Assembly (NCBI GenBank): GCA_903825255.1
Contig: CAIJZZ010000070.1
Location: 8,767 to 72,766, forward strand
Reading direction: 5' to 3'
DNA: 64,000 bases
DNA from: an uncultured bacterium
GTDB taxonomy: Bacteria > Patescibacteriota > Minisyncoccia > Phycocordibacterales > UBA9973
The notes below the pieces were generated by a model, which did no database searches, was not told where the DNA came from, and worked only from the letters and a program-made list of their open reading frames with translations. Made by a program: the position numbers and the translations under genes. Below, one piece after another: positions 1 to 59,591 of this stretch (position 1 is the first letter of the stretch; each line of letters begins with the position of its first letter).

Positions 1-62
1 TAGTTCAATCTATTCCTGTTCCTGTAAAAAATAAGAAAATAAAAATTAAAAAAATAGTAATA

Positions 63-20994: not shown

Positions 20995-21111
20995 AAAGCA
21001 TCATTCTCACTATTATTTAACGAGAACTGACGATTGTGGATATCAATATATGACTTTTTGTCGTTTAGCCCAGCCTGGGTAGCATTGATGACCATGACAA
21101 AAAGAAAATAT

Positions 21112-22431
21112 ATGATAAATAAGCAACGCAGTTTCGCGCCCGCCCGCAACGGTGAGCGTAGCGATTCGGGCAGGCGTGGAGCTTCTGCTCCATCTCGCGG
21201 TAAATTTAATAGTAGTCATTCTAGTCACTCTAAACCTAGTTTCCATTCAAAAAGTGGAGGCAGTTTTGGTAGTAAAAAAAGAAGTAGTGGTGGTAAAAAA
21301 AGATTTGGTGGAGAACGAATTGATTTTTCACGTTTTGTGAAGAAAGCTCAGATGATAAAGGAAATTCCATATGTTTCTAAACATACGTTTTCTGATTTTC
21401 CATTTAATTCACAACTTTATAAAAATATAGCTAAAGCTGGTTTTATAAATCCACGACCAATTCAAGATCAAGCTATTCCTTCAGTACTTGCCGGGAAAGA
21501 TGTTTTCGGTATGGCTAATACCGGGACAGGGAAGACAGCCGCTTTTCTTTTGCCACTTATTGAAAAAATTGCGAAAACAAAAGGTCAATCAAAAAGAGAA
21601 ACAGTACTAATTATGGCTCCGACTCGCGAACTGGCTTTACAAATAGAATCAGATTTTAAAAATCTCGCTTTTGGGTTTGGAATGTTTTCTGTTTGTTGTG
21701 TCGGTGGACTTCCAATAATGAAACAAATTTCTGAATTAAAAATGGGTGTCTCTTTTGTAATCGGCACCCCAGGTCGCTTACGAGACCTTATTGCTCGAAA
21801 AGTGTTAGATTTATCACAATGTCACTCTGTGGTACTCGATGAGGCAGATCGAATGCTTGATATGGGCTTCCGTGATGATATGGTTTTTATTTTAGCTAAG
21901 TGCCCAAAAGAGGATAGACAAACTCTTTTCTTTTCTGCCACACTCTCACCTGAAATTAAAAAACTCACGACTGAATTTCTAAAAGATCCAGTTTTCATTT
22001 CTGTTATCTCTGGGGAGACTGCCAAAAATATTGATCAGGATATCGTGCGAGTTCGCACAAAAGAAGAAAAATTAGAAAAGCTTCATGAAATTTTAAAAAA
22101 AGATGGATCAGATAAAGTTTTAATTTTTCGAGAAATGAAACACAGTGTAGACACTTTAACTAAGGAATTAAATCATTTAGGTTTTAAAGTCGGTTCGATT
22201 CATGGTGACAAAAGAAGCCGAGAACGTATTCGTACTCTAGACGCTTTTAAGCAAGATAAAATAAATATTTTAATTGCGACAGATGTCGCGGCTAGAGGCC
22301 TAGATATCCCTGATGTGACCCATGTGATCAATTATGATATTCCACAGAATTACGATACTTATGTGCATCGTATTGGACGTACTGGCCGTTCAGGTAAATC
22401 AGGCACTGCTCTCACTTTCGTGCCAGCCTAA
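21112..22431 (+). CDS. DEAD-box ATP-dependent RNA helicase with basic Ser/Gly/Arg-rich N-terminal tail
   Basis: Q-motif PRPIQDQAIP, then ANTGTGKTAAF, VLDEADRML, SATL and HRIGRTGRSG. The start is uncertain: in-frame ATGs at 21088, 21094 and 21112. Confidence 0.9.
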   Translation: MINKQRSFAPARNGERSDSGRRGASAPSRGKFNSSHSSHSKPSFHSKSGGSFGSKKRSSGGKKRFGGERIDFSRFVKKAQMIKEIPYVSKHTFSDFPFNSQLYKNIAKAGFINPRPIQDQAIPSVLAGKDVFGMANTGTGKTAAFLLPLIEKIAKTKGQSKRETVLIMAPTRELALQIESDFKNLAFGFGMFSVCCVGGLPIMKQISELKMGVSFVIGTPGRLRDLIARKVLDLSQCHSVVLDEADRMLDMGFRDDMVFILAKCPKEDRQTLFFSATLSPEIKKLTTEFLKDPVFISVISGETAKNIDQDIVRVRTKEEKLEKLHEILKKDGSDKVLIFREMKHSVDTLTKELNHLGFKVGSIHGDKRSRERIRTLDAFKQDKINILIATDVAARGLDIPDVTHVINYDIPQNYDTYVHRIGRTGRSGKSGTALTFVPA

Positions 22432-24016: not shown

Positions 24017-24030
24017 AAATTTTATTCGTT

Positions 24031-24097
24031 GTGCTGTTTTTTCAGGTCCTCGGTCCTCCTCGCGAGTACGCTCGGCCAGACCATTCAAAAACAGCAC
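24031..24097. repeat. family A GC-capped hairpin element, copy A1
   Basis: Arms GTGCTGTTTTT / AAAAACAGCAC enclose TCAGGTCCTCGGTCCTCCTCGCGAGTACGCTCGGCCAGACCATTC. The core matches 59515-59564 at 49 of 50 positions. Confidence 0.85.
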
Positions 24098-24130
24098 AAC
24101 TTCATTATATTAATATGGTAACATTATAAC

Positions 24131-31867: not shown

Positions 31868-32050
31868 CTTAAGGTATGCGTTGAAGAGGCCCCGTCCGAA
31901 TAATCCGGGCAGACATCACCTCGGAGCATTAGGAAGAAACCCCAAAAGGGAAGTAGAACCTATTAAATGAGAAGTAATCAAGGTGGTACCACGGGGAAAC
32001 TCGTCCTTGTATAGTAATTATTGTAATTATTATACGTGGACGAGTTTTTT
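31868..32050 (+). promoter_or_regulatory. T-box riboswitch leader (Ile specifier) with intrinsic terminator
   Basis: T-box sequence AATCAAGGTGGTACCACGG (31976-31994). A candidate specifier AUC-A lies at 31915-31918 in an internal loop of a short stem (GAGG..CCCG/CGGG..CCTC). The terminator AAACTCGTCC...GGACGAGTTTTTT ends at 32050, 30 nt before ileS. Confidence 0.8.
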
Positions 32051-32079
32051 ATTTATCAATTTAAAATTAAATTAAAAAT

Positions 32080-35000
32080 ATGGAGGATCAAAATAAAAAA
32101 TCAGAAAGTGCCTTGCGCGAAGAAGCGGTTTTAAAATTCTGGAAAGAACAGAAAGTTTTTGAGAGTTCTTTAGCAAAAGAGTCGCCAAAGGGTGAGTATG
32201 TTTTTTATGAAGGTCCTCCGACCGCGAACGGTAAGCCTGGTATTCACCACTTGGAAGCTAGAGCTTTTAAAGATGCCATCCCACGTTACAAAACAATGTG
32301 CGGATATCATGTACGTCGAAAAGGAGGTTGGGACACACATGGTTTGCCAGTAGAGCTACAGGTAGAAAAAGAATTAGGGTTAAAATCTAAAAAAGAAATT
32401 GAAGAATACGGTATCGCAAAATTTAATCAAAAGTGTAAAGAGAGTGTTTGGACTTATGTAGACCTTTGGGAGAAATTTACAGAGAGAATAGGGTATTGGG
32501 TAGATCAAGAAAATCCATATGTAACATATCATAATGATTATATTGAATCTGTTTGGAATGTAATTAAAGAAACGAATAAACAAAATTTACTTTATAAAGA
32601 TTATAAGGTGGTACCTTGGTGTCCACGTTGTGGTACGACACTTTCTTCTCACGAGCTTGCGCAAGGGTATGAAGTGGTGAAAGATTTGTCAGTTACTGCG
32701 AAGTTTAAAATTAAAGCCTCGTCCAGTACTTCTGCTCGGGTCCTCGGTCTGGGGCCAGACCACTCGCAGAAGCACATGGACTCGGCTAATGCCTATATAC
32801 TTGCTTGGACAACGACACCTTGGACTTTGCCTGGTAATGTTGCACTTGCTGTCGGGGAAGATATTATTTATGTAAAAATAAAAAAAGATGATGAAATTTT
32901 AATTCTTGCAAAAGCAAGGCTTTCGCAAATAGAAGGTGAATATGAAATTCAAGAGGAATTAAAAGGTAAAGATTTGATCGGCTTAGAATATGAACCATTG
33001 TATCCATTTTTGAAAGATAATATTTCTGAAAAAGAAAAACCAAAATTAGAAAAAGCTTTTCAGGTGCATAAGGCTGGTTTTGTGACGACGGAAGATGGTA
33101 CTGGGGTAGTGCATACAGCTGTGATGTATGGACAGGATGACTTTATTTTAGGTAATGAAGTTGGCTTACCGAAACATCATCTTGTGGGTCTCGATGGAAA
33201 GTTTTTAAAAGATACTGGCTTTTTAGAAGGCAGGTTTGTACGGGATGAAGAGGTAGCAGTAGATATTATTAAAGATTTAGCAAGTCGCGGGCTTTTATTT
33301 AAGAAAGAAAAATATGAGCACTCATATCCACATTGTTGGCGTTGTCACACAGCGCTCATTTATTATGCGCGAGATTCTTGGTATATAAAAATGACTGCAC
33401 TGCGAGATAAAATGGTGGCAGAAAATGAAGGCATAAATTGGGAGCCAGAATATATCAAAGAAGGGCGTTTTGGCGAGTGGCTTCGAGAAATAAAGGACTG
33501 GGCGATTTCTCGAGAGCGATATTGGGGTACACCCTTACCTGTGTGGACTTGTGAAAAGTGTCACCAGAATGAAGTAGTTGGTAGTATTGCCGATCTAAAA
33601 GCAAAAATAAAAAAGTCTGGGAATAATTATTTTGCTATGCGCCACGGTGAGGCAGATAATAATTTAAGTGATTTATATTATAAAGATCCTCATCATACAG
33701 CTAAATTAACAGAAAAAGGAAAAGCTCAAGTTTTAGAGAGTGCTAAAAATTTTAAAGAAAAAATTGATATAGTTATCGCGTCTCCTTTTGAAAGAACTAA
33801 AGAAACTTCTAAGATTATTTGTGAACAAATAAATTTTCCTATAGAAAAAATAATTTACGATGAAAGAATTCAAGAATGGGAAATTAGTTCAAATTTTGAG
33901 GGGAAAGGAAGGGCAACTTTTAAACAGTATTATGAAAAAGATTATTTAGATAATCCGACCGAAGTATTACCAGACGGAGAAAGTTTTACCGAGCTTATAA
34001 AAAGAGTTGGTAGTTTTATTTATGATTTAGAAAATAAATATTCAGGTAAAAATATTTTAATTGTTGGGCATGCAGGAGTCGGTGATGCATTAGGCTTTGT
34101 AATAAATGGGCTAACCCCTGATTCTTTTTCGAGTAAAAATGACCCATTTAATCCACTTCAAAATGCTGAAATTAAAAATTTTGATTTCATTCCACTTCCA
34201 CATAATGAAAATTATGAACTTGATTTACACAAACCATATATTGATGAAGTGGAGTTAGTTTGTGACTGCGGAGGGAAATTAGTCAGAGCGAAAGAAGTCA
34301 TGGATGTGTGGCTCGATTCTGGTACGATGCCTTTTTCGCAAGATCATTATCCCTTCAATGGGGAGATTCAATATCCTGCTGATTTTATTTCTGAAGCGAT
34401 AGATCAGACACGTGGTTGGTTTTATACTTTACACGCCGTTGGAGCTTTGATGGGACGGGGAAAAGCTTATAAAAATGTAATTTGCTTAGGACTTCTACTT
34501 GATGCGAAGGGTAAGAAGATGTCTAAATCTGTTGGAAATATCGTGGACCCTTGGGAGATGATTGAGAAGTACGGAGTAGATACTTTGCGCTTTTGGATGT
34601 ATTCAGTGAATCAACCAGGGGAATCAAAACTTTTTGATGAAAAAACTGTTTTAGAATTACATCGTCAGATTTTTGGTTTGCTCTATAATGTGCTCGCATT
34701 TTATGAATTATACCGTGATCCACAATTAGAAGTTCTAGAATATAAAAAACCAGAAAATATTTTAGACCAATGGATAGTCGCTAAATTAGACGAACTTATT
34801 AAACTCTGCACTCTAAAAATAGAAGATTATAAATTATTGGAGCCAGCTCGAGCTATTAAAGATTTTATTGGGGATCTTTCGACTTGGTATTTACGTAGAT
34901 CTCGAGAGAGAATAAAAGAAGGAGATATTGAAGCCAAACAAACTTTATATTTTATTCTAAAAACTTTAGCGAAAATTATGGCACCGTTTGCGCCTTTTTC

Positions 35001-35583
35001 GGCGGAAGATATTTGGCAGAAATTGAAGAATGAAAATGACATAGAAAGTGTGCATTTAGAAAGTTGGCCTACCTTCGCTCTCGCTACGGCGGGCGAGGCC
35101 CAAAATATTTTAGAGAATATGGATCAAGTTAGAAAGATTGTTTCTCTGGGACTAGAAGCTCGACAGAAAGCGGGGATAAAAGTACGTCAACCGCTACAGA
35201 AATTAGAAGTTGCAAACCTATCATTAAGAGCAGAATTTTTAGAAATTATTAAAGATGAATTGAATATAAAAGAAGTGACAGTAAATAAGAAATTAGAAGC
35301 AGAAGTATTTTTAGATACAGAAATTTCTGAAGAATTGAAGATAGAGGGGCAATATCGCGAGTTCGTGCGAGCTATTCAAGATATGCGTAAAAAAGCTGGG
35401 CTAACACCCTCTGATGTTATTATACTTTCTGTTGAAACTGGCGAGGAAGGTAGAAAAATAATTGAAAAATTTGAAACTGAAATTAAAAAAACAGTCCTTG
35501 CCTCAAAAATAGAATTTTCTCCTAATGATGGGGATACTGTAAAAGTTGATGAATTGATTTTCAAAATACTCATTCAAAAATAA
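32080..35583 (+). CDS. ileS: isoleucyl-tRNA synthetase (type 2) carrying an internal histidine-phosphatase domain and two short GC-rich inserts
   Basis: PPTANGKPGIHHLE (HIGH), WTTTPWTLPGN, WISRERYWGTPLP and KMSKSVGN are present. The protein is 1167 aa because of insertions. Confidence 0.95.
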   Translation: MEDQNKKSESALREEAVLKFWKEQKVFESSLAKESPKGEYVFYEGPPTANGKPGIHHLEARAFKDAIPRYKTMCGYHVRRKGGWDTHGLPVELQVEKELGLKSKKEIEEYGIAKFNQKCKESVWTYVDLWEKFTERIGYWVDQENPYVTYHNDYIESVWNVIKETNKQNLLYKDYKVVPWCPRCGTTLSSHELAQGYEVVKDLSVTAKFKIKASSSTSARVLGLGPDHSQKHMDSANAYILAWTTTPWTLPGNVALAVGEDIIYVKIKKDDEILILAKARLSQIEGEYEIQEELKGKDLIGLEYEPLYPFLKDNISEKEKPKLEKAFQVHKAGFVTTEDGTGVVHTAVMYGQDDFILGNEVGLPKHHLVGLDGKFLKDTGFLEGRFVRDEEVAVDIIKDLASRGLLFKKEKYEHSYPHCWRCHTALIYYARDSWYIKMTALRDKMVAENEGINWEPEYIKEGRFGEWLREIKDWAISRERYWGTPLPVWTCEKCHQNEVVGSIADLKAKIKKSGNNYFAMRHGEADNNLSDLYYKDPHHTAKLTEKGKAQVLESAKNFKEKIDIVIASPFERTKETSKIICEQINFPIEKIIYDERIQEWEISSNFEGKGRATFKQYYEKDYLDNPTEVLPDGESFTELIKRVGSFIYDLENKYSGKNILIVGHAGVGDALGFVINGLTPDSFSSKNDPFNPLQNAEIKNFDFIPLPHNENYELDLHKPYIDEVELVCDCGGKLVRAKEVMDVWLDSGTMPFSQDHYPFNGEIQYPADFISEAIDQTRGWFYTLHAVGALMGRGKAYKNVICLGLLLDAKGKKMSKSVGNIVDPWEMIEKYGVDTLRFWMYSVNQPGESKLFDEKTVLELHRQIFGLLYNVLAFYELYRDPQLEVLEYKKPENILDQWIVAKLDELIKLCTLKIEDYKLLEPARAIKDFIGDLSTWYLRRSRERIKEGDIEAKQTLYFILKTLAKIMAPFAPFSAEDIWQKLKNENDIESVHLESWPTFALATAGEAQNILENMDQVRKIVSLGLEARQKAGIKVRQPLQKLEVANLSLRAEFLEIIKDELNIKEVTVNKKLEAEVFLDTEISEELKIEGQYREFVRAIQDMRKKAGLTPSDVIILSVETGEEGRKIIEKFETEIKKTVLASKIEFSPNDGDTVKVDELIFKILIQK
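32728..32773 (+). repeat. family A GC-capped hairpin element, copy A3 (in frame inside ileS)
   Basis: ACTTCTGCTCGGGTCCTCGGTCTGGGGCCAGACCACTCGCAGAAGC. The arms are CTTCTGC/GCAGAAG and the inner stem is GGTCTGG/CCAGACC. It encodes ...TSARVLGLGPDHSQKH... Confidence 0.75.
35066..35101 (+). repeat. family B GC-rich element, copy B1 (in frame inside ileS)
   Basis: GGCCTACCTTCGCTCTCGCTACGGCGGGCGAGGCCC shares CCTTCGC..GCTACGG..CGGGCG with 58417-58451. It encodes PTFALATAGEAQ. Confidence 0.6.
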
Positions 35584-49805: not shown

Positions 49806-49832
49806 AAACTTTTTAGTAATTTTGTAGGATTT

Positions 49833-49885
49833 GCTTTTTCGAGCTGGTCTGGCTTCAAACCGAGGACCCGAGAAAAAGTAAAGCC
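49833..49885 (-). repeat. family A GC-capped hairpin element, copy A4
   Basis: The reverse complement reads CTTTTTCTCGGGTCCTCGGTTTGAAGCCAGACCAGCTCGAAAAAG. Confidence 0.75.
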
Positions 49886-49892
49886 TATAAAA

Positions 49893-50249
49893 TTACTTTA
49901 ATATTAATTTATAATTTTTTTCATCACTATTTTTAAATTTATCTTCTGCTTTTATATCAATTATATTATACCCCAAGAGGAGTGCAATCGTTTCATCAAA
50001 GTTGCCTTGTTGGTCGATTGAGATTATTCTACCATTTATGCTTAAGTTTATTGCATTTTTTGCATTACCAGTGATTCGCATAATCTCACCAGGAGTAGTA
50101 GACCCGTCCATGATATTTATAATCTGTACATTTTTTATTTTTACACCGAAGATCAAGTCTCTTGAGCCGATAAAAACAAAAATTATTATTATCAGAAATA
50201 AAAGTGATACCGATCCTATTTTAACAATTTTTTTCGCGTCTTGGTTCAT
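49893..50249 (-). CDS. hypothetical single-TM protein
   Basis: 118 aa, with a TM (IGSVSLLFLIIIIFVFIG). It lies between ftsK and recA on the same strand. Confidence 0.5.
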   Translation of the reverse strand: MNQDAKKIVKIGSVSLLFLIIIIFVFIGSRDLIFGVKIKNVQIINIMDGSTTPGEIMRITGNAKNAINLSINGRIISIDQQGNFDETIALLLGYNIIDIKAEDKFKNSDEKNYKLILK

Positions 50250-50260
50250 TTTGGTTAGAC

Positions 50261-50329
50261 GGGTAATATTTTATTTTGCTCGGGTCCTCGGTTTGGGGGG
50301 AGCCCTGCTCGCAAAACAAAATATTACCC
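50261..50329 (+). repeat. family A GC-capped hairpin element, copy A5
   Basis: 19-bp arms GGGTAATATTTTATTTTGC / GCAAAACAAAATATTACCC (18 of 19 paired) enclose TCGGGTCCTCGGTTTGGGGGGAGCCCTGCTC. Confidence 0.75.
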
Positions 50330-50332
50330 TTT

Positions 50333-52534
50333 CTAGATTACATTTCCTCCATCTTCTGTGTGTTCGATTTTTTCTAGTACCTCTCGAGGTTTTGCGCCAT
50401 CTCCTGGTCCGATCACTCCACGGTCTTCGAGCATATCCATAAGTCTTGCAGCTCGAGCATAACCAAGTTTTAATTTTCTTTGTAAATATGAAGTTGAAGC
50501 TTTTCCGGCTTCAATGATACAAGCACGAGCTTCTTCATACATTTCATCTTCTTCGTCTGCATCATCTAAGGTGCTTTCAAAAATACTTTTATCAGCTGAA
50601 ATTGAACCAGAAGTTAAAGAAATTTCATCATTTATTTCATCTTTATATGTTTCCACTAAATATTTAACTACTTTTTTTACTTCACCTTCAGAAATAAAGG
50701 CAGATTGTAGACGTTCTGGTTGAGCATCTCCTGAAGAATAAAGCATATCACCAGCCCCGAGTAGTTTTTCGGCTCCGCCAGCATCTAAGATAGTGCGTGA
50801 ATCTATTTGTGAAGAAACTTTAAGAGCAATACGAGCAGGGATATTGGCTTTAATAAGTCCAGTAATGACATTTACTTCTGGGCGCTGAGTGGAAAGAATT
50901 AGGTGGATACCGACAGCGCGAGACATTTGAGCGAGACGAACGATAGCAGATTCAAGTTCTCTAGGGTATGTGGTCATTATATCGGCTAACTCGTCTATTA
51001 TAATGACAATATATGGCATACGCTCAGCATTTACTTCTGTTTCTACTCCGGCGCTGTCTGTTTTAATTTTTTTATTATTTTTACCAAAAACATTTTCATG
51101 GTATGAACTTATGTCTCGCACAGATTCTGCTTCTAAAATATCATATCGACGGTCCATTTCCTTCGCGGCCCATTTGAGAGCCAGAATTGTTTTTTTAGCA
51201 TCAGTGATGACGGGAGTGAGTAAGTGCGGAATTTTATTATAAAGAGTAAGTTCAACACGTTTTGGGTCAATTAAAATTAATTTCAAATCATCTGGTCCGT
51301 TTCGGTAGAGAAGAGAAGTAATCATCGAATGTATGGTGACTGATTTTCCAGAACCAGTAGTTCCAGCGACGAGACAGTGAGGCATTTTGGCTAAATTACC
51401 AAACATGGCTTTCCCAGAAATTCCACGACCGAGGGCGACCGTAATCGGCTTGTTTGAATTTTGGAATTTTTCATCTGAAAGGAGAGTAGCAAGGCCGACG
51501 ATTGATTTTGATCTATTAGGAATTTCGATACCGACGAGAGACTTACCAGGGATCGGAGCTTCAATACGAATCGGGTGCGCAGCGAGAGCGAGAGATAAAT
51601 CATTTTGTAATCCGACTATACGAGAAAGTTTCATGCCTTCAGCTGGTTTTAATGCATAGCGAGTGACTGTGGGTCCCACAGTGATCTCATCCATTTCAAC
51701 TTCAATACCGAAGTTTGCGAGTGTGCGTTTAATAATATTCGCATTGGCTTTAATGTCGCCAGTGTTTGGCTTGCCTTTATCTTCTTCCAGTAATGAAAGT
51801 GGGGGAGGCACGTAAGAAGATAAAAGATTTTTTCTTTTTTTGATTGGGATCTCTTCCTCTTCATTTTCTTTCGGTAAAACTAATTCTTTTTCTTTTTTAC
51901 TTATGCCTAAATTTTTGATGATTTTATCACCAAGATTTTCTTTTTCAGTTTCTTCCTCTTCCGCGTCCTCCTCAATAGGTTCTTCCTCGATTCTTTCTTT
52001 CTTTTTAAAAATATTAAAAATACTTTTTAAGATTGGCAGAAGCATTGGTTTAGTATCAAACATTATTAAAATAGAAATTATTAAAATAGCACCAAGTAAA
52101 ACGATGCTAGCATAAACATCAAAAAGAGAAACGAACGGAGCAGATAAAATTCTACCCAAAAGTCCGCCAGTGTTACTTCCGGAAGTTATATCTATGATAC
52201 CCAAACTAGAAAGTAAAAACATTAGAGAACTGAAAGTGCGATTCCAGCCAATGTTTGGTCGTTCGGATTTAACAAAAGAAGATCCTAATAAAATAAAAAG
52301 AATTGGTAGAAGTATATAACCAATTCCTAATAAATAATAAAAAATATCATAAACGAATTGTCCCGCTACTCCAGCCATATTGAAAGCGGACATAAAAAGA
52401 AAAAGTGCTAAAACAAAAAAAACAACTGCCCAAATACCATGTTTGGTTTCTGTTTTTAATTTAGAAATATTTTTTTTACTTTTGTCATTATTTGAATTTT
52501 TGTTGATAGTTTTTTGCTTGTCATTTTTTACCAT
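50333..52534 (-). CDS. ftsK: DNA translocase FtsK/SpoIIIE
   Basis: N-terminal TM block, an acidic linker, the motor with AGTTGSGKSV (Walker A) and VIIIDELADIM, and a C-terminal gamma wHTH (TSYLQRKLKLGYARAARLMD). Confidence 0.93.
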   Translation of the reverse strand: MVKNDKQKTINKNSNNDKSKKNISKLKTETKHGIWAVVFFVLALFLFMSAFNMAGVAGQFVYDIFYYLLGIGYILLPILFILLGSSFVKSERPNIGWNRTFSSLMFLLSSLGIIDITSGSNTGGLLGRILSAPFVSLFDVYASIVLLGAILIISILIMFDTKPMLLPILKSIFNIFKKKERIEEEPIEEDAEEEETEKENLGDKIIKNLGISKKEKELVLPKENEEEEIPIKKRKNLLSSYVPPPLSLLEEDKGKPNTGDIKANANIIKRTLANFGIEVEMDEITVGPTVTRYALKPAEGMKLSRIVGLQNDLSLALAAHPIRIEAPIPGKSLVGIEIPNRSKSIVGLATLLSDEKFQNSNKPITVALGRGISGKAMFGNLAKMPHCLVAGTTGSGKSVTIHSMITSLLYRNGPDDLKLILIDPKRVELTLYNKIPHLLTPVITDAKKTILALKWAAKEMDRRYDILEAESVRDISSYHENVFGKNNKKIKTDSAGVETEVNAERMPYIVIIIDELADIMTTYPRELESAIVRLAQMSRAVGIHLILSTQRPEVNVITGLIKANIPARIALKVSSQIDSRTILDAGGAEKLLGAGDMLYSSGDAQPERLQSAFISEGEVKKVVKYLVETYKDEINDEISLTSGSISADKSIFESTLDDADEEDEMYEEARACIIEAGKASTSYLQRKLKLGYARAARLMDMLEDRGVIGPGDGAKPREVLEKIEHTEDGGNVI

Positions 52535-52573: not shown

Positions 52574-52648
52574 AAAAAAACAAAATATGAAAGTTTTCTG
52601 GCGGACAAGACGCAGCCAGTGCCCGCAGGCGAAAACTTTCACATTTTG
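52574..52648. repeat. singleton long GC-capped hairpin
   Basis: 24-nt arms AAAAAAACAAAATATGAAAGTTTT / AAAACTTTCACATTTTGTTTTTTT (23 of 24 complementary) flank CTGGCGGACAAGACGCAGCCAGTGCCCGCAGGCG. Confidence 0.7.
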
Positions 52649-52731
52649 TTTTTTTTATTAATCCCTCTGACAAGGGGGAAATAAGGGGTTAAAAAACTTG
52701 CCTTTTTTATTGTCCTATATATAATGGACGT

Positions 52732-53619: not shown

Positions 53620-53928
53620 ATTAAAAACTAAATTTTATTCAAACATTTTGCAACGTTTATTCGCTCTAATGCGTATATAAATACGTACTCTATGGTTTGC
53701 ATTTTAGGTAAAAATATGCGATTATTAGAGTGTGGGTTTTGTTTCATTTAGTTTGTGTTGTAAAGCACAGATTATGAAGGAGTTTATCCACATAATATTT
53801 GCTGTATTTAATAGCAAATATTATAATGTTATTATGTTTATGGAACGCACATAAGTGTGCAGTTCTGTATTCATAAATTGTATTTATTTTTGTTCACAAT
53901 TTCGTCGAAAAAATTTTGAATAAAAATA

Positions 53929-53962
53929 AGCCCTCCTTCGCGAAAGCTTCGGACGGGCAAGG
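53929..53962 (+). repeat. family B GC-rich element, copy B3
   Basis: AGCCCTCCTTCGCGAAAGCTTCGGACGGGCAAGG, an isolated GC-rich island in AT-rich intergenic DNA. Confidence 0.75.
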
Positions 53963-54260
53963 AAAGGTCATTGAAAACTAAAGAGGAAAAATCTTGTGGA
54001 ATTTTCTACAGGATAGATTCGTTTTGGTTTTCTTTTCAACCAAAGACTGATTTAGTCTTTGGAAGAAGTTTAAAGTAAATCTGTTCACTGTCAATTTTTT
54101 CTACCCAACTTATTAGTCTTATTATTATTATTTTTTGGTAGATAAAAACAGTGATAGAAAAATATGCTTTTAGTTTTGTCGAAACTAATTAATGGCATAT
54201 TACTTCATCTAAATTTTATTTTAAAAAATAGAACTAGATAGAAGTATATTAGATAATTTT

Positions 54261-58394: not shown

Positions 58395-58600
58395 ACCGCA
58401 AAGAAAACAGGCAAACAGCCCTCCTTCGCATAAAGCTACGGACGGGCGCAGTAAGTCCTGTTTAGTGGGTCGATATTCTGACGTTAAGTCGGAAAAACCT
58501 TGCGGCTATTAAGCCGTTTTTTTTATTAGAAAATAAGGAGCGTTGCGACTATATTTTCTTGTACTCCGACTTTAGTCGGAGAAGTTAATCAAAAAAAATT
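58395..58600 (+). promoter_or_regulatory. long structured leader of rplJ-rplL (possible L10 autoregulatory leader/attenuator)
   Basis: Helix AAACAGG/CCTGTTT encloses element B4. A CGGCT-ATTA-AGCCG hairpin with a T8 run lies at 58503-58524. A CTCCGAC-TTTA-GTCGGAG hairpin lies near the start codon. Confidence 0.4.
58417..58451 (+). repeat. family B GC-rich element, copy B4
   Basis: CAGCCCTCCTTCGCATAAAGCTACGGACGGGCGCAG. Confidence 0.75.
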
Positions 58601-59119: not shown

Positions 59120-59485
59120 ATGTCAGATAAATTTAAAGATATTATAGAAAAAATTGAAACTATGTCCGTGCTTGATTTGCACGAATTAGTCAAAGCTTTA
59201 GAAGAGAAGTTTGGAGTTTCGGCTGCGGCTGTTGCTGTTGCTGGTCCTGCCGCTGGTCCTGCCGCTGAGGAAAAAGATGCCTTTACTGTGGTCTTGGCTT
59301 CCGCCGGTGAACAAAAGATTGCCGTGATGAAGATCGTAAAAGAAGTATTAGGTCTAGGACTTAAAGAAGCTAAAGATCTAGTCGATGGCGCTCCAGCAAC
59401 TTTGAAAGATGGAATGAAAAAAGCTGAAGCTGAAGAAGTGAAGAAAAAGATAGAGGAAGTAGGTGGAAAAGTAGAGCTTAAATAA
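59120..59485 (+). CDS. rplL: 50S ribosomal protein L7/L12
   Basis: Ala/Pro hinge [17 protein letters not shown] and the C-terminal domain [22 protein letters not shown]. Confidence 0.95.
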
Positions 59486-59488
59486 ATA

Positions 59489-59586
59489 AAAAAAACACAA
59501 ATAACTAAATTTTTTCAGGTCCTCGGTTCTCCTCGCGAGTACGCTCGGCCAGACCATTCAAAAATTTTTTATTTGTGTTTTTTTAA
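59489..59586. repeat. family A GC-capped hairpin element, copy A2
   Basis: Arms AAAAAACACAAATAA...TTATTTGTGTTTTTT enclose TCAGGTCCTCGGTTCTCCTCGCGAGTACGCTCGGCCAGACCATTC. It starts 4 nt after the rplL stop. Confidence 0.85.
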
Positions 59587-59591
59587 TTTTT

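What the first reader, a model, noticed from the sequence alone, without database searches (positions are those of the whole stretch)
32728..32773. Family A element sits in frame inside ileS (RPE-like insertion in an essential gene)
ACTTCTGCTCGGGTCCTCGGTCTGGGGCCAGACCACTCGCAGAAGC is a strong hairpin, with arms CTTCTGC/GCAGAAG and inner stem GGTCTGG/CCAGACC. It is markedly more GC-rich than the surrounding gene. Translated in frame, it contributes ..SSTSARVLGLGPDHSQKHMDS.. between the conserved VTAKFKIK strand and the AYILAWTTTPWTLPGN motif. Other IleRS proteins have only a few residues at this position. In-frame palindromic repeat insertions in protein-coding genes are established for Rickettsia palindromic elements. 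This looks like the same phenomenon in a different, AT-rich lineage.
Basis: partly seen in the sequence, partly recalled or inferred. Interest (0 to 1): 0.7.

Follow-up and report, generated by a model that had tools for sequence, protein, structure and literature searches.

The report
Hairpin repeat inserted in-frame in ileS
A 72-base GC-rich hairpin in the isoleucyl-tRNA synthetase gene of this Patescibacteria genome is one copy of a widespread repeat family that sits in frame in many housekeeping genes, as the palindromic elements of Rickettsia do.

Summary
The hairpin is longer than reported: 32715-32787, 73 nt, -37 kcal/mol, the strongest 80-nt fold in the window.

It corresponds to 24 extra codons that replace a 3-residue beta-turn just before the AWTTTPWT editing motif. 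69 of 120 close IleRS orthologues, distant type-2 IleRS and the closest solved structure (8c8w) all have only the short turn.

The window holds four clear copies of the family and one degenerate copy. Every copy has a conserved bulged core (TCRGGTCCTCGG ... GCCAGACCA) inside copy-specific but complementary arms.

68 of 118 non-redundant low-GC copies lie deep inside long ORFs, in several frames and both orientations. Hosts include PolA, UvrA/B/D, LeuRS, PheT, KsgA, RecJ and the CCA-adding enzyme.

The ileS site is a hot spot. 47 of 120 orthologues carry an insert of at least 8 residues there, from at least six hairpin types, scattered across the IleRS tree. One is family A on the opposite strand.

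This is an RPE-like selfish hairpin element in a new lineage. How it moves is unknown, and its translation has not been shown directly.

The parts
32080..35583 (+). ileS ORF (1167 aa). It is a type-2 IleRS with an internal His-phosphatase domain and is the host gene of the insert.
   Evidence: ORF list and translation. It is 100% identical to database protein P0001, which carries the Pfam tRNA-synt_1, Anticodon_1 and His_Phos_1 domains.
32715..32787 (+). The complete hairpin, i.e. the family-A copy inside ileS. Codons 213-236 (nt 32716-32787) are extra relative to orthologues and replace the 3-residue turn G/N-Q-E/D.
   Evidence: Fold at -36.8 kcal/mol, z = -4.8. Insert-specific columns in the 120-sequence alignment. 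Empty orthologous sites in L084, L043 and L004. A 21-residue gap in PDB 8c8w.
32715..32728 (+). Outer left arm AGCCTCGTCCAGTA. It pairs with 32773-32787.
   Evidence: Homologous arms occur at the ileS site of L081, L082, L085, L086, L208 and L209, and in pheT copies L156 and L160.
32729..32735 (+). Inner stem, left strand: CTTCTGC. This is the drifted form of the family's T-run, CTTTTYC.
   Evidence: Compensatory variants are CTCTTGC/GCAAGAG (L085) and CTCATTC/GAATGAG (L086).
32736..32747 (+). Box 1: TCGGGTCCTCGG, the conserved 5' half of the bulged core helix.
   Evidence: GGTCCTCGGT occurs 5 times in the window against 0.5 expected. It is invariant in the 80-copy alignment, partly because the search pattern required it.
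32748..32753 (+). Apical segment TCTGGG, the shortest subtype. Other copies carry 7-33 nt here.
32754..32765 (+). Box 2: GCCAGACCACTC, the conserved 3' half of the core helix.
32766..32772 (+). Inner stem, right strand: GCAGAAG.
32773..32787 (+). Outer right arm CACATGGACTCGGCT.
24028..24100 (+). Family-A copy between the divergent sod and metallo-beta-lactamase-fold genes. It is absent from the same spacer in L081-L084.
   Evidence: (71.6 bits).
49817..49895 (-). Family-A copy upstream of recA.
   Evidence: (46 bits).
50256..50335 (+). Degenerate family-A copy between ftsK and a small ORF. Box 1 is intact and box 2 is lost.
   Evidence: The covariance model did not detect it.
59484..59589 (+). 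Family-A copy just after rplL, inside an A-run/T-run terminator-like hairpin. Its apical segment differs from that of the 24028 copy at one base in 22.
   Evidence: I3; 70.2 bits.

Best explanation
The segment is one copy of a non-autonomous, GC-rich palindromic repeat (family A) that populates AT-rich Paceibacteria/Parcubacteria genomes. It is selfish hairpin DNA of the same kind as the Rickettsia palindromic elements.

Shown:
- The whole 72-73-nt hairpin is a derived insertion in ileS. It replaces a 3-residue beta-turn six residues upstream of the threonine-rich editing motif.
- It keeps the reading frame and has no stop codon.
- The family has a conserved, bulged core helix, 5'-GGTC(C)T(C)GG / CC-A-GACC-3'. 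The core is flanked by a T-run/A-run stem and by outer arms that differ from copy to copy but stay complementary.
- Copies sit in intergenic, terminator-like hairpins and also, in frame, in many housekeeping genes.

Inferred:
- The element is translated into a 24-residue hydrophilic, probably disordered surface loop (ASSSTSARVLGLGPDHSQKHMDSA). The enzyme tolerates the loop; the peptide is a passenger, not the selected feature.
- Copies spread within a genome mainly as the core module, either by insertion into the apex of an existing hairpin or by short-patch gene conversion between copies. Occasionally the whole hairpin moves.
- Only in-frame, stop-free insertions in permissive loops of essential genes survive. 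Together with apex-targeting of hairpins already present, this makes a few sites such as this ileS turn recurrent hot spots.
- Arm complementarity is kept by hairpin-templated repair or compensatory substitution, so the constraint acts on the nucleic acid, not on the protein.

The enzyme that moves the element is unknown.
For: Insert versus empty site:
- The 120-orthologue alignment and the nucleotide comparison with L084, L043 and L004 place the indel on the hairpin.
- Distant type-2 IleRS have a 5-6-residue turn, and PDB 8c8w shows a gap.

Repeat family:
- Five copies in the window.
- 118 non-redundant low-GC copies.

Architecture:
- Outer arms are 31% identical between copies. Matched left and right arms give a duplex of -17.7 kcal/mol, against -6.5 for mismatched pairs.
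- In the inner stem, 11 of 11 pairs show changes on both sides, and 81% of cells are paired against 33-52% in slid controls.

Coding copies:
- 68 of 118 lie at least 150 nt inside long ORFs, in five of the six frame/orientation classes.
- Hosts include PolA, UvrA/B/D, LeuRS, PheT, KsgA, SMC, the CCA-adding enzyme, ComM and RecJ.

Independent events at the ileS site:
- Patchy distribution on the IleRS tree.
- L207 carries the element on the minus strand with unrelated arms. L208 carries a genome-specific variant with a compensated 1-bp deletion in both boxes, and the same variant is in its recJ.

Module behaviour:
- Within one locus, 50% of copy pairs share the apical segment at 0.9 identity or better, against 5% between loci. 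Arms are not shared in this way.
- The window, L081, L208 and L209 share ileS arms but hold different cores.

Nucleic-acid-level constraint:
- Stem changes are non-synonymous yet compensatory.
- There is no third-position excess: 0.31/0.22/0.22 and 0.24/0.23/0.30, against 0.36/0.28/0.52 in flanking ileS.

Loop location: coil with pLDDT below 50 between two strands.

No match to a curated RNA family or terminator pattern: no Rfam hit, and no terminator-like call at the ileS copy.
Against: - No target-site duplication, transposase or other mobilising protein was identified. No transposase family is among the precomputed Pfam hits listed for L081-L086 and L207-L210.
- No filled/empty pair between near-identical strains was available, so recent movement is inferred, not seen.
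- Arms at the ileS site are homologous across distant IleRS lineages. That also fits one old insertion spread by homologous recombination, or vertical descent with later core replacement.
- In L082, L083, L085 and L086 the ileS copies are the only family-A copies in about 23 kb. That is odd for a simply promiscuous element.
- Translation of the insert is not demonstrated.
- The structural model is only moderate: mean pLDDT 70, pTM 0.48.
- The family was ascertained with a pattern that fixes both boxes, so invariance of the core is partly circular.
Confidence: 0.8

Rival explanations
1. Ancestral coding sequence: the segment is an old, lineage-specific IleRS loop conserved for its amino-acid sequence, and the hairpin is incidental.
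For: About 11-15 of 120 orthologues carry a similar peptide..QVLG..PDHS[QE]KH.., at the same position in the same frame.
Against: - These orthologues are scattered among lineages with the short turn that is shared with Clostridia and archaea.
- The nearest relative, P0002 (77% identity), has a different core in the same arms.
- The same DNA occurs antisense at the site, in unrelated genes, and in intergenic DNA.
- Substitutions are compensatory at the nucleotide level and non-synonymous.
Confidence: 0.03
2. A functional cis-acting structure selected for its own sake. The conserved bulged core could be a binding site on DNA or RNA: a REP-like site for a nucleoid protein, nuclease or RAYT-type enzyme; an mRNA stability or processing signal; a translational pause site; or a DNA-uptake signal in these competence-dependent bacteria. 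The ileS copy would be kept because it does something.
For: - Variable stems with conserved internal boxes and strong covariation are the usual signature of a functional structured nucleic acid.
- Intergenic copies sit in terminator-like A-run/T-run hairpins after genes such as rplL.
- ComEC is encoded in related loci.
- ileS retains a copy in several genomes in which the flanking 20 kb has none.
Against: - The element is absent from ileS in most orthologues, and other hairpin types replace it at the same site.
- It works in neither a fixed orientation nor a fixed frame in genes.
- There is no T-run after the ileS copy.
- It matches no curated RNA family.
- The density, about 5 per 64 kb, is far below what I recall for known uptake sequences.
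- A function for intergenic copies would not by itself explain the in-frame genic ones.
Confidence: 0.12
3. The insert is not translated. It is removed from the transcript (intron-like or RNase-processed and religated) or bypassed by the ribosome, as the GC-rich 'byp' elements of some yeast mitochondria are reported to be (from memory).
For: It is a very stable hairpin inside an essential gene. Patescibacteria are known for intervening sequences in rRNA genes (from memory).
Against: - All 68 genic copies examined keep the host frame open through the element. All insert-bearing IleRS orthologues are full-length in frame. That constraint would be unnecessary if the element were removed. However, disrupted genes would have been missed by the way these copies were ascertained.
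- No ribozyme or intron family matches.
Confidence: 0.04
4. An assembly or amplification artefact: a chimeric palindrome created during metagenome assembly.
For: Palindromes can arise as MDA or assembly chimeras.
Against: The same family, with the same core, occurs in more than 100 contigs from many independent projects and assemblers. It is always in frame in intact genes. The protein is in public databases with identical sequence.
Confidence: 0.01

Closest known systems
Rickettsia palindromic elements (RPE-1 to RPE-10; Ogata et al. 2000, 2002, as summarised in PMC10969869)
   Same: Both are short palindromic repeats in a reduced, AT-rich genome. Both occur in many copies and have no transposase of their own. 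Both insert in frame in unrelated housekeeping genes, including aminoacyl-tRNA synthetases and DNA-repair genes, adding a peptide without destroying the protein, and also occur in intergenic DNA. In both, the inserted peptides are predicted to lie where they are compatible with the fold.
   Different: The phylum differs (Patescibacteria, not Alphaproteobacteria). No sequence relationship was tested. Family A is shorter: 73-119 nt, median about 97, against roughly 100-150 bp. It is strongly GC-rich against its genome. Only a bulged core of about 30 nt plus a T/A-run stem is conserved, and the arms are specific to each copy. Different cores sit in the same arms at one site. The same protein loops are hit repeatedly and in both orientations.
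REP/BIME elements and their RAYT (TnpA-REP) transposases (PMC3733652)
   Same: Both are imperfect GC-rich hairpins with bulges, dispersed in many copies and often found after genes, where they can act as terminators or stabilisers. Conservation lies in the structure and in a short motif.
   Different: REPs are 20-40 bp, carry a GTAG or CGTC head, and are extragenic by definition. Here 58% of copies are intragenic, the unit is 70-120 nt, no GTAG/CGTC head is evident, and no RAYT gene was seen.
Bacterial MITEs (Correia, ERIC, BOX, RUP, Nezha and others; PMC10969869, PMC3184786)
   Same: Both are small, non-autonomous, fold into hairpins, and occasionally give in-frame fusions with host ORFs.
   Different: MITEs have conserved terminal inverted repeats that match a parent IS, and they have target-site duplications. 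Here the termini are the variable part, no duplication is visible, and no parent IS is known.
GC clusters and 'byp' elements of yeast mitochondria, and coding palindromes of Nematomorpha mitochondria (PMC6649704; the yeast elements from memory)
   Same: Both are GC-rich or perfect palindromes embedded in essential protein genes of AT-rich, reduced genomes, with arms evolving in concert.
   Different: Those are organellar. Byps are skipped by the ribosome and need not be in frame. The Nematomorpha palindromes are not a dispersed family with a conserved core.

Membership tests
RPE-like in-frame palindromic repeat (functional class) | Dispersed repeat with many copies in the genome or lineage | tested here: met
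   Four clear copies and one degenerate copy in 64 kb. At least 120 metagenome stretches.
RPE-like in-frame palindromic repeat (functional class) | Palindromic: folds into one long hairpin | tested here: met
   -36.8 kcal/mol, z = -4.8. Matched arms -17.7 against -6.5 kcal/mol. Covariation.
RPE-like in-frame palindromic repeat (functional class) | Inserted in frame in unrelated, intact housekeeping ORFs and absent from orthologues | tested here: met
   For ileS. For other genes. Absence from orthologues was shown only for ileS and for one intergenic site.
RPE-like in-frame palindromic repeat (functional class) | The insert lies in a surface loop compatible with the fold | tested here: inconclusive
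   The AF2 model has a low-pLDDT coil between two strands, and the gap falls in a turn of solved IleRS by sequence alignment. Solvent exposure was not computed and the model is only moderate.
Rickettsia RPE families proper | Sequence similarity to an RPE-1..10 consensus | not tested
The host phylum differs.
Rickettsia RPE families proper | Element conserved over its whole length of about 100-150 bp within a family | tested here: not met
   Only the core and the T/A-run stem are conserved. Outer arms are 31% identical between copies. The ileS copy is 73 nt.
MITE | Conserved terminal inverted repeats shared by all copies | tested here: not met
   The termini are the least conserved part.
MITE | Target-site duplication flanking the element | tested here: inconclusive
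   No direct repeat is visible at the ileS or sod-spacer junctions. The comparison genomes are too diverged to define exact ends.
MITE | A related autonomous IS with a transposase | not tested
   No transposase family is among the precomputed Pfam hits for the genes of L081-L086 and L207-L210. No whole-genome search was possible.
REP/BIME | 20-40 bp, extragenic, with a GTAG or CGTC head | tested here: not met
   Copies are 73-119 nt, 58% are intragenic, and the consensus has no such head.
Any Rfam RNA family (riboswitch, ribozyme, sRNA, intron) | A covariance-model match | tested here: not met
   No hit at gathering score in the window. No hit on the elements at E <= 1 in L108, L153 and L124.
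Intrinsic terminator | A GC-rich hairpin followed by a T-run | tested here: not met
   No terminator-like call at 32715-32787, and the downstream sequence is AATGCCTATATA. Some intergenic copies do have A-run/T-run flanks.

The most novel reading that the evidence does not exclude
The family is not just another MITE-like repeat but a modular, 'Russian-doll' hairpin system. Interchangeable GC-rich core modules (family A, the type-2 and type-6 cores, the L147 core) would be inserted into, or exchanged at, the single-stranded apex of hairpins that already exist: terminators in spacers, older elements in genes. An as yet unknown structure-specific enzyme, or hairpin-templated repair, would do this.

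Fixed surface loops of essential enzymes such as the IleRS editing-domain turn would then behave as cassette sites whose peptide content turns over between lineages. This would be a new mobility mode, and a general source of the lineage-specific protein insertions of Patescibacteria.
Probability: 0.25. Interest if true: 0.85.

Novelty: new member of a known kind. Interest (0 to 1): 0.62.

Why it matters
In-frame palindromic 'selfish DNA' in essential genes has been regarded as a peculiarity of Rickettsia (review PMC10969869). Four of the full-text searches were aimed at a prior report of such elements in Patescibacteria/CPR bacteria; none of the papers they listed describes one.

Here a single family interrupts IleRS, LeuRS, PheRS-beta, Pol I, UvrABD, RecJ, KsgA and other core genes across many groundwater, soil and sediment metagenomes.

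Three things follow:
- It is a concrete mechanism for part of the lineage-specific insertions and length variation of Patescibacteria proteins.
- It provides natural maps of permissive loops in essential enzymes.
- It has a practical consequence. These GC-rich hairpins will disturb homology-based annotation, alignment-based phylogenomics, and possibly assembly of these genomes.

The recurrent hot spots, with swapped cores in shared arms, also offer a tractable system for asking how hairpin elements move without a recognisable transposase.

Tried and rejected
- Exact-protein look-up of the window's IleRS found no contig on record. P0003 had no DNA file.
It returned only about 20 Patescibacteria loci, none with an insert. 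It was still useful for showing that the short turn is ancestral.
- The viral-contig scan for the element found nothing.
- A protein-level census of the element-encoded peptide failed. A doubled profile found 17 candidates and no hit, using up one large search.
- Rfam matched none of the element copies tested.
- The type-6 core of L081 was not found anywhere else in the loci held.
- A search for an 'empty scaffold', meaning ileS-type arms without a core, found none in Patescibacteria loci.
- The GC-rich patch at 35056-35108 in ileS resembles another window repeat, but the orthologue alignment does not show a clear insert there.
- I considered the hairpin as an internal terminator and rejected it, because there is no T-run.
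- I considered that the arms were copied from the flanking target. The sod-spacer comparison with L081-L084 does not support this.
Full report
**1. The observation**

The quoted 46-nt string lies at 32728-32773 on the + strand. The pairing extends outward to 32715-32787. The whole 73-nt stretch folds into one hairpin of -36.8 kcal/mol. Dinucleotide-preserving shuffles average -22.6 (z = -4.8), and none of 200 fold as well.

In a scan of all 80-nt windows it is the most stable fold in the 64-kb window, which averages -11.1 with sd 4.8. GC is 0.60-0.63, in a window of 0.33 and a gene of about 0.36.

It lies inside a 1167-codon ORF, 32080-35583, that encodes isoleucyl-tRNA synthetase. The frame stays open and reads ..VTAKFKIK ASSSTSARVLGLGPDHSQKHMDSA NAYILAWTTTPWTLPGN...

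The organism is a member of the Patescibacteria. The protein is identical to a database entry, and its 119 best relatives (64-77% identity) are named Paceibacterota, Nomurabacteria, Minisyncoccia or Parcubacteria where a name exists.

**2. It is an insertion**

In a MAFFT alignment of the 120 proteins, the only long stretch of window-specific residues is aa 214-236, which is nt 32719-32787. That is the hairpin.

69 of the 120 have just KFK[VI]-KGQENT-YILAWTTTPW. The same 5-6-residue turn is present in far more distant type-2 IleRS from other Patescibacteria, Clostridia, Chloroflexota and archaea. So the short state is ancestral.

The closest solved structure (8c8w) aligns with a 21-residue gap at exactly this point.

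At the DNA level, empty sites in L084, L043 and L004 read AAA-(AAT/GGA)CAAGA(C/A)AAT-ACT. In the window, 72 nt replace the three turn codons.

An AlphaFold2 model (mean pLDDT 70, pTM 0.48) places strands at 197-211 and 238-244, with a coil of pLDDT below 50 at 215-234 between them. This is what a tolerated surface loop would look like, but exposure was not measured.

**3. It belongs to a repeat family**

GGTCCTCGGT occurs five times in the window, against 0.5 expected. Four clear copies and one degenerate copy share the following:
- a T-rich strand;
- box 1, TC[AG]GGTCCTCGG;
- a variable apical hairpin;
- box 2, GCCAGACCA(TTC/CTC/GCTC);
- an A-rich strand.

A scan of viral contigs found nothing.

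After removing hits in GC-rich contigs, which look like chance, 118 non-redundant copies remain in contigs of 31-44% GC.

The two boxes form an imperfect helix with two bulged C residues, GGTC(C)T(C)GG / CC-A-GACC.

Outside the core, sequence is not conserved between copies: outer-arm identity is 31%. Yet each copy's left and right arms are complementary, at -17.7 kcal/mol against -6.5 for arms paired between different copies. Total hairpin span is 73-119 nt, median about 97.

On an 80-copy alignment, all 11 inner-stem pairs show changes on both sides. 81% of cells are paired, against 33-52% when the partner column is slid.

No Rfam family matches, even at E <= 1.

A covariance model built from the alignment finds four copies in the window. 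In five orthologous loci it finds only the copies inside ileS.

**4. In-frame insertion in genes is the rule for this family**

68 of the 118 copies lie at least 150 nt inside long ORFs.

| Frame / orientation class | Copies |
|---|---|
| Sense, frame 2 (..FSQVLG..PDHSK..) | 31 |
| Sense, frame 0 (..SGPRFSG..) | 16 |
| Antisense, frame 0 (..NGLAG..RGPEK..) | 16 |
| Other classes | 5 |

Pfam scans of 21 host ORFs give the following:
- UvrA, UvrB, UvrD/PcrA (three);
- DNA polymerase I (four, same position);
- LeuRS and another class-I synthetase;
- PheRS beta (three, same position, both orientations);
- KsgA (the peptide flanks suggest about six further copies at the same position, in both orientations);
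- SMC, CCA-adding enzyme (two), ComM, an FAD oxidase, and RecJ.

**5. The ileS turn is a hot spot**

47 of 120 orthologues carry at least 8 extra residues here. They fall into at least six peptide types.

On a neighbour-joining tree the states are thoroughly interleaved. Family A appears in nine or more separated places. The window's nearest relatives carry type 6 (P0002) and type 2 (P0003).

Every insert whose DNA I could fetch is a hairpin:

| Insert | Locus | MFE (kcal/mol) |
|---|---|---|
| Type 6 | L081 | -32.6 |
| Type 2 | L209 | -55 |
| Type 3 | L210 | -33 |

L207 has family A on the opposite strand at this site, with unrelated arms (58 bits).

L208 has a family-A variant that lacks one G in box 1 and the pairing C in box 2. 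The same variant sits in recJ of that genome.

These cannot all descend from one insertion read in one frame.

**6. What moves**

Copies from the same locus share the apical segment far more often than copies from different loci: 50% against 5% at 0.9 identity or better. Their outer arms are no more alike than those of random pairs.

Conversely, the ileS inserts of the window, L081, L208 and L209 share homologous arms (..CTCGTCNAGTACTTCTGC / GCAGAAGCACATGGACTCGGCT..) but hold different cores. The same arms with a family-A core occur in pheT (L156, L160). L147 has the same inner stem with yet another core.

Whole hairpins can also be duplicated. L085 has two copies in ileS with identical left arms.

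In the sod/beta-lactamase-fold spacer, the window's copy, arms included, is absent from L081-L084. L081 has only a 12-nt GC hairpin there.

My reading is that the core module spreads or is homogenised within a genome. This would happen either by insertion at the apex of an existing hairpin or by short-patch conversion, with the arms largely belonging to the site. This is inference. No target duplication, no transposase and no strain-level filled/empty pair were found.

**7. The constraint is on the nucleic acid**

Between ileS copies the 7-bp stem reads as follows:

| Copy | Stem (left / right) |
|---|---|
| Window | CTTCTGC / GCAGAAG |
| L085 | CTCTTGC / GCAAGAG |
| L086 | CTCATTC / GAATGAG |

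These changes alter the peptide (SA, LA, HS) but keep the pairing.

Mean pairwise differences by codon position are 0.31/0.22/0.22 in the left half and 0.24/0.23/0.30 in the right half. Flanking ileS gives 0.36/0.28/0.52. So there is no third-position excess. The sample is small.

The ileS copy is not followed by a T-run and is not called as a terminator.

**8. Comparison with known systems**

Functionally this matches the Rickettsia palindromic elements as summarised in PMC10969869: short palindromic repeats without a transposase, inserted in frame in unrelated housekeeping genes.

It differs in five ways:
- the host phylum;
- its size;
- its GC-richness against the genome;
- conservation limited to a bulged core, with copy-specific arms;
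- recurrent hot spots with exchangeable cores.

It fails the defining features of classical MITEs (conserved termini) and of REPs (20-40 bp, extragenic, GTAG/CGTC head; PMC3733652).

Four of the five full-text searches were aimed at a prior description in Patescibacteria. None of the papers they listed reports palindromic, MITE or REP elements in that group. The library is incomplete, so prior description elsewhere cannot be excluded.

**9. Verdict**

The interpretation (RPE-like in-frame insertion in an essential gene) is supported. The element is a new member of a known kind.

The more novel possibility, modular cores targeting hairpin apices at fixed protein loops, is not excluded. I give it about one chance in four.

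Interest is 0.62. It is not a new principle. It is a clear, large-scale second instance of a phenomenon thought nearly unique to Rickettsia, in a major uncultivated radiation, and it has features that make the mobility question approachable.

Noticed in passing
window 31872-32058: A reduced T-box-like leader lies in front of ileS. The Rfam T-box hit is sub-threshold (38.9 bits against a gathering score of 93, E = 2e-7). It has the canonical AAGGUGGUACCACG box, a possible AUC (Ile) specifier in GCAGACAUCACC, a very short stem I, and a strong terminator hairpin (31994-32050, -31 kcal/mol) followed by a T-run 30 nt before the start codon.
   Followed up: partly
window 32080-35583 (about aa 515-700); P0001-P0120; L173:131-3022: All 120 IleRS of this clade carry a histidine-phosphatase domain (PF00300) inside the synthetase. 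Two also carry an HD domain (P0097, P0110). A LeuRS in L173 carries a NUDIX domain. Hydrolase domains inserted in aminoacyl-tRNA synthetases seem to be a feature of these bacteria.
   Followed up: no
window 21130-21200: This is the second strongest in-ORF hairpin of the window (-34 kcal/mol, GC 0.68). It lies in the N-terminal extension (aa 33-56) of a DEAD-box helicase ORF, 21034-22431. It may be an in-frame insert of another hairpin family.
   Followed up: partly
window 52576-52653; 53928-53970; 58408-58458; 35056-35108: These are further GC-rich hairpins with AT-rich complementary arms but different cores. Two share GCCCTCCTTCGC..GCT.CGGACGGGC. A similar string lies inside ileS at 35056-35108, but the orthologue alignment does not show a clear insert there.
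   Followed up: partly
window 50256-50335: A degenerate family-A copy between ftsK and a small ORF. Box 1 is intact and box 2 is replaced (GGGGGGAGCCCTGCTCG). The arms are still perfectly paired (-32.8 kcal/mol). The covariance model misses it.
   Followed up: partly
L208:625-678 and L208:10646-10699: Two copies in one genome, in recJ and ileS, share a compensated deletion: one G is lost from box 1 and the pairing C from box 2. This is a genome-specific core variant.
   Followed up: yes
L107:4708-4783: A family-A copy in which box 1 is triplicated in tandem (GGTCCTCGGGTCCTCGGGTCCTCGG).
   Followed up: no
L081:1583-1594: At the position where the window has the 73-nt family-A copy between sod and the beta-lactamase-fold gene, the closest relative has only a 12-nt GC hairpin, CGCCATAAGGCG. 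This could be a target, a footprint or a coincidence.
   Followed up: no
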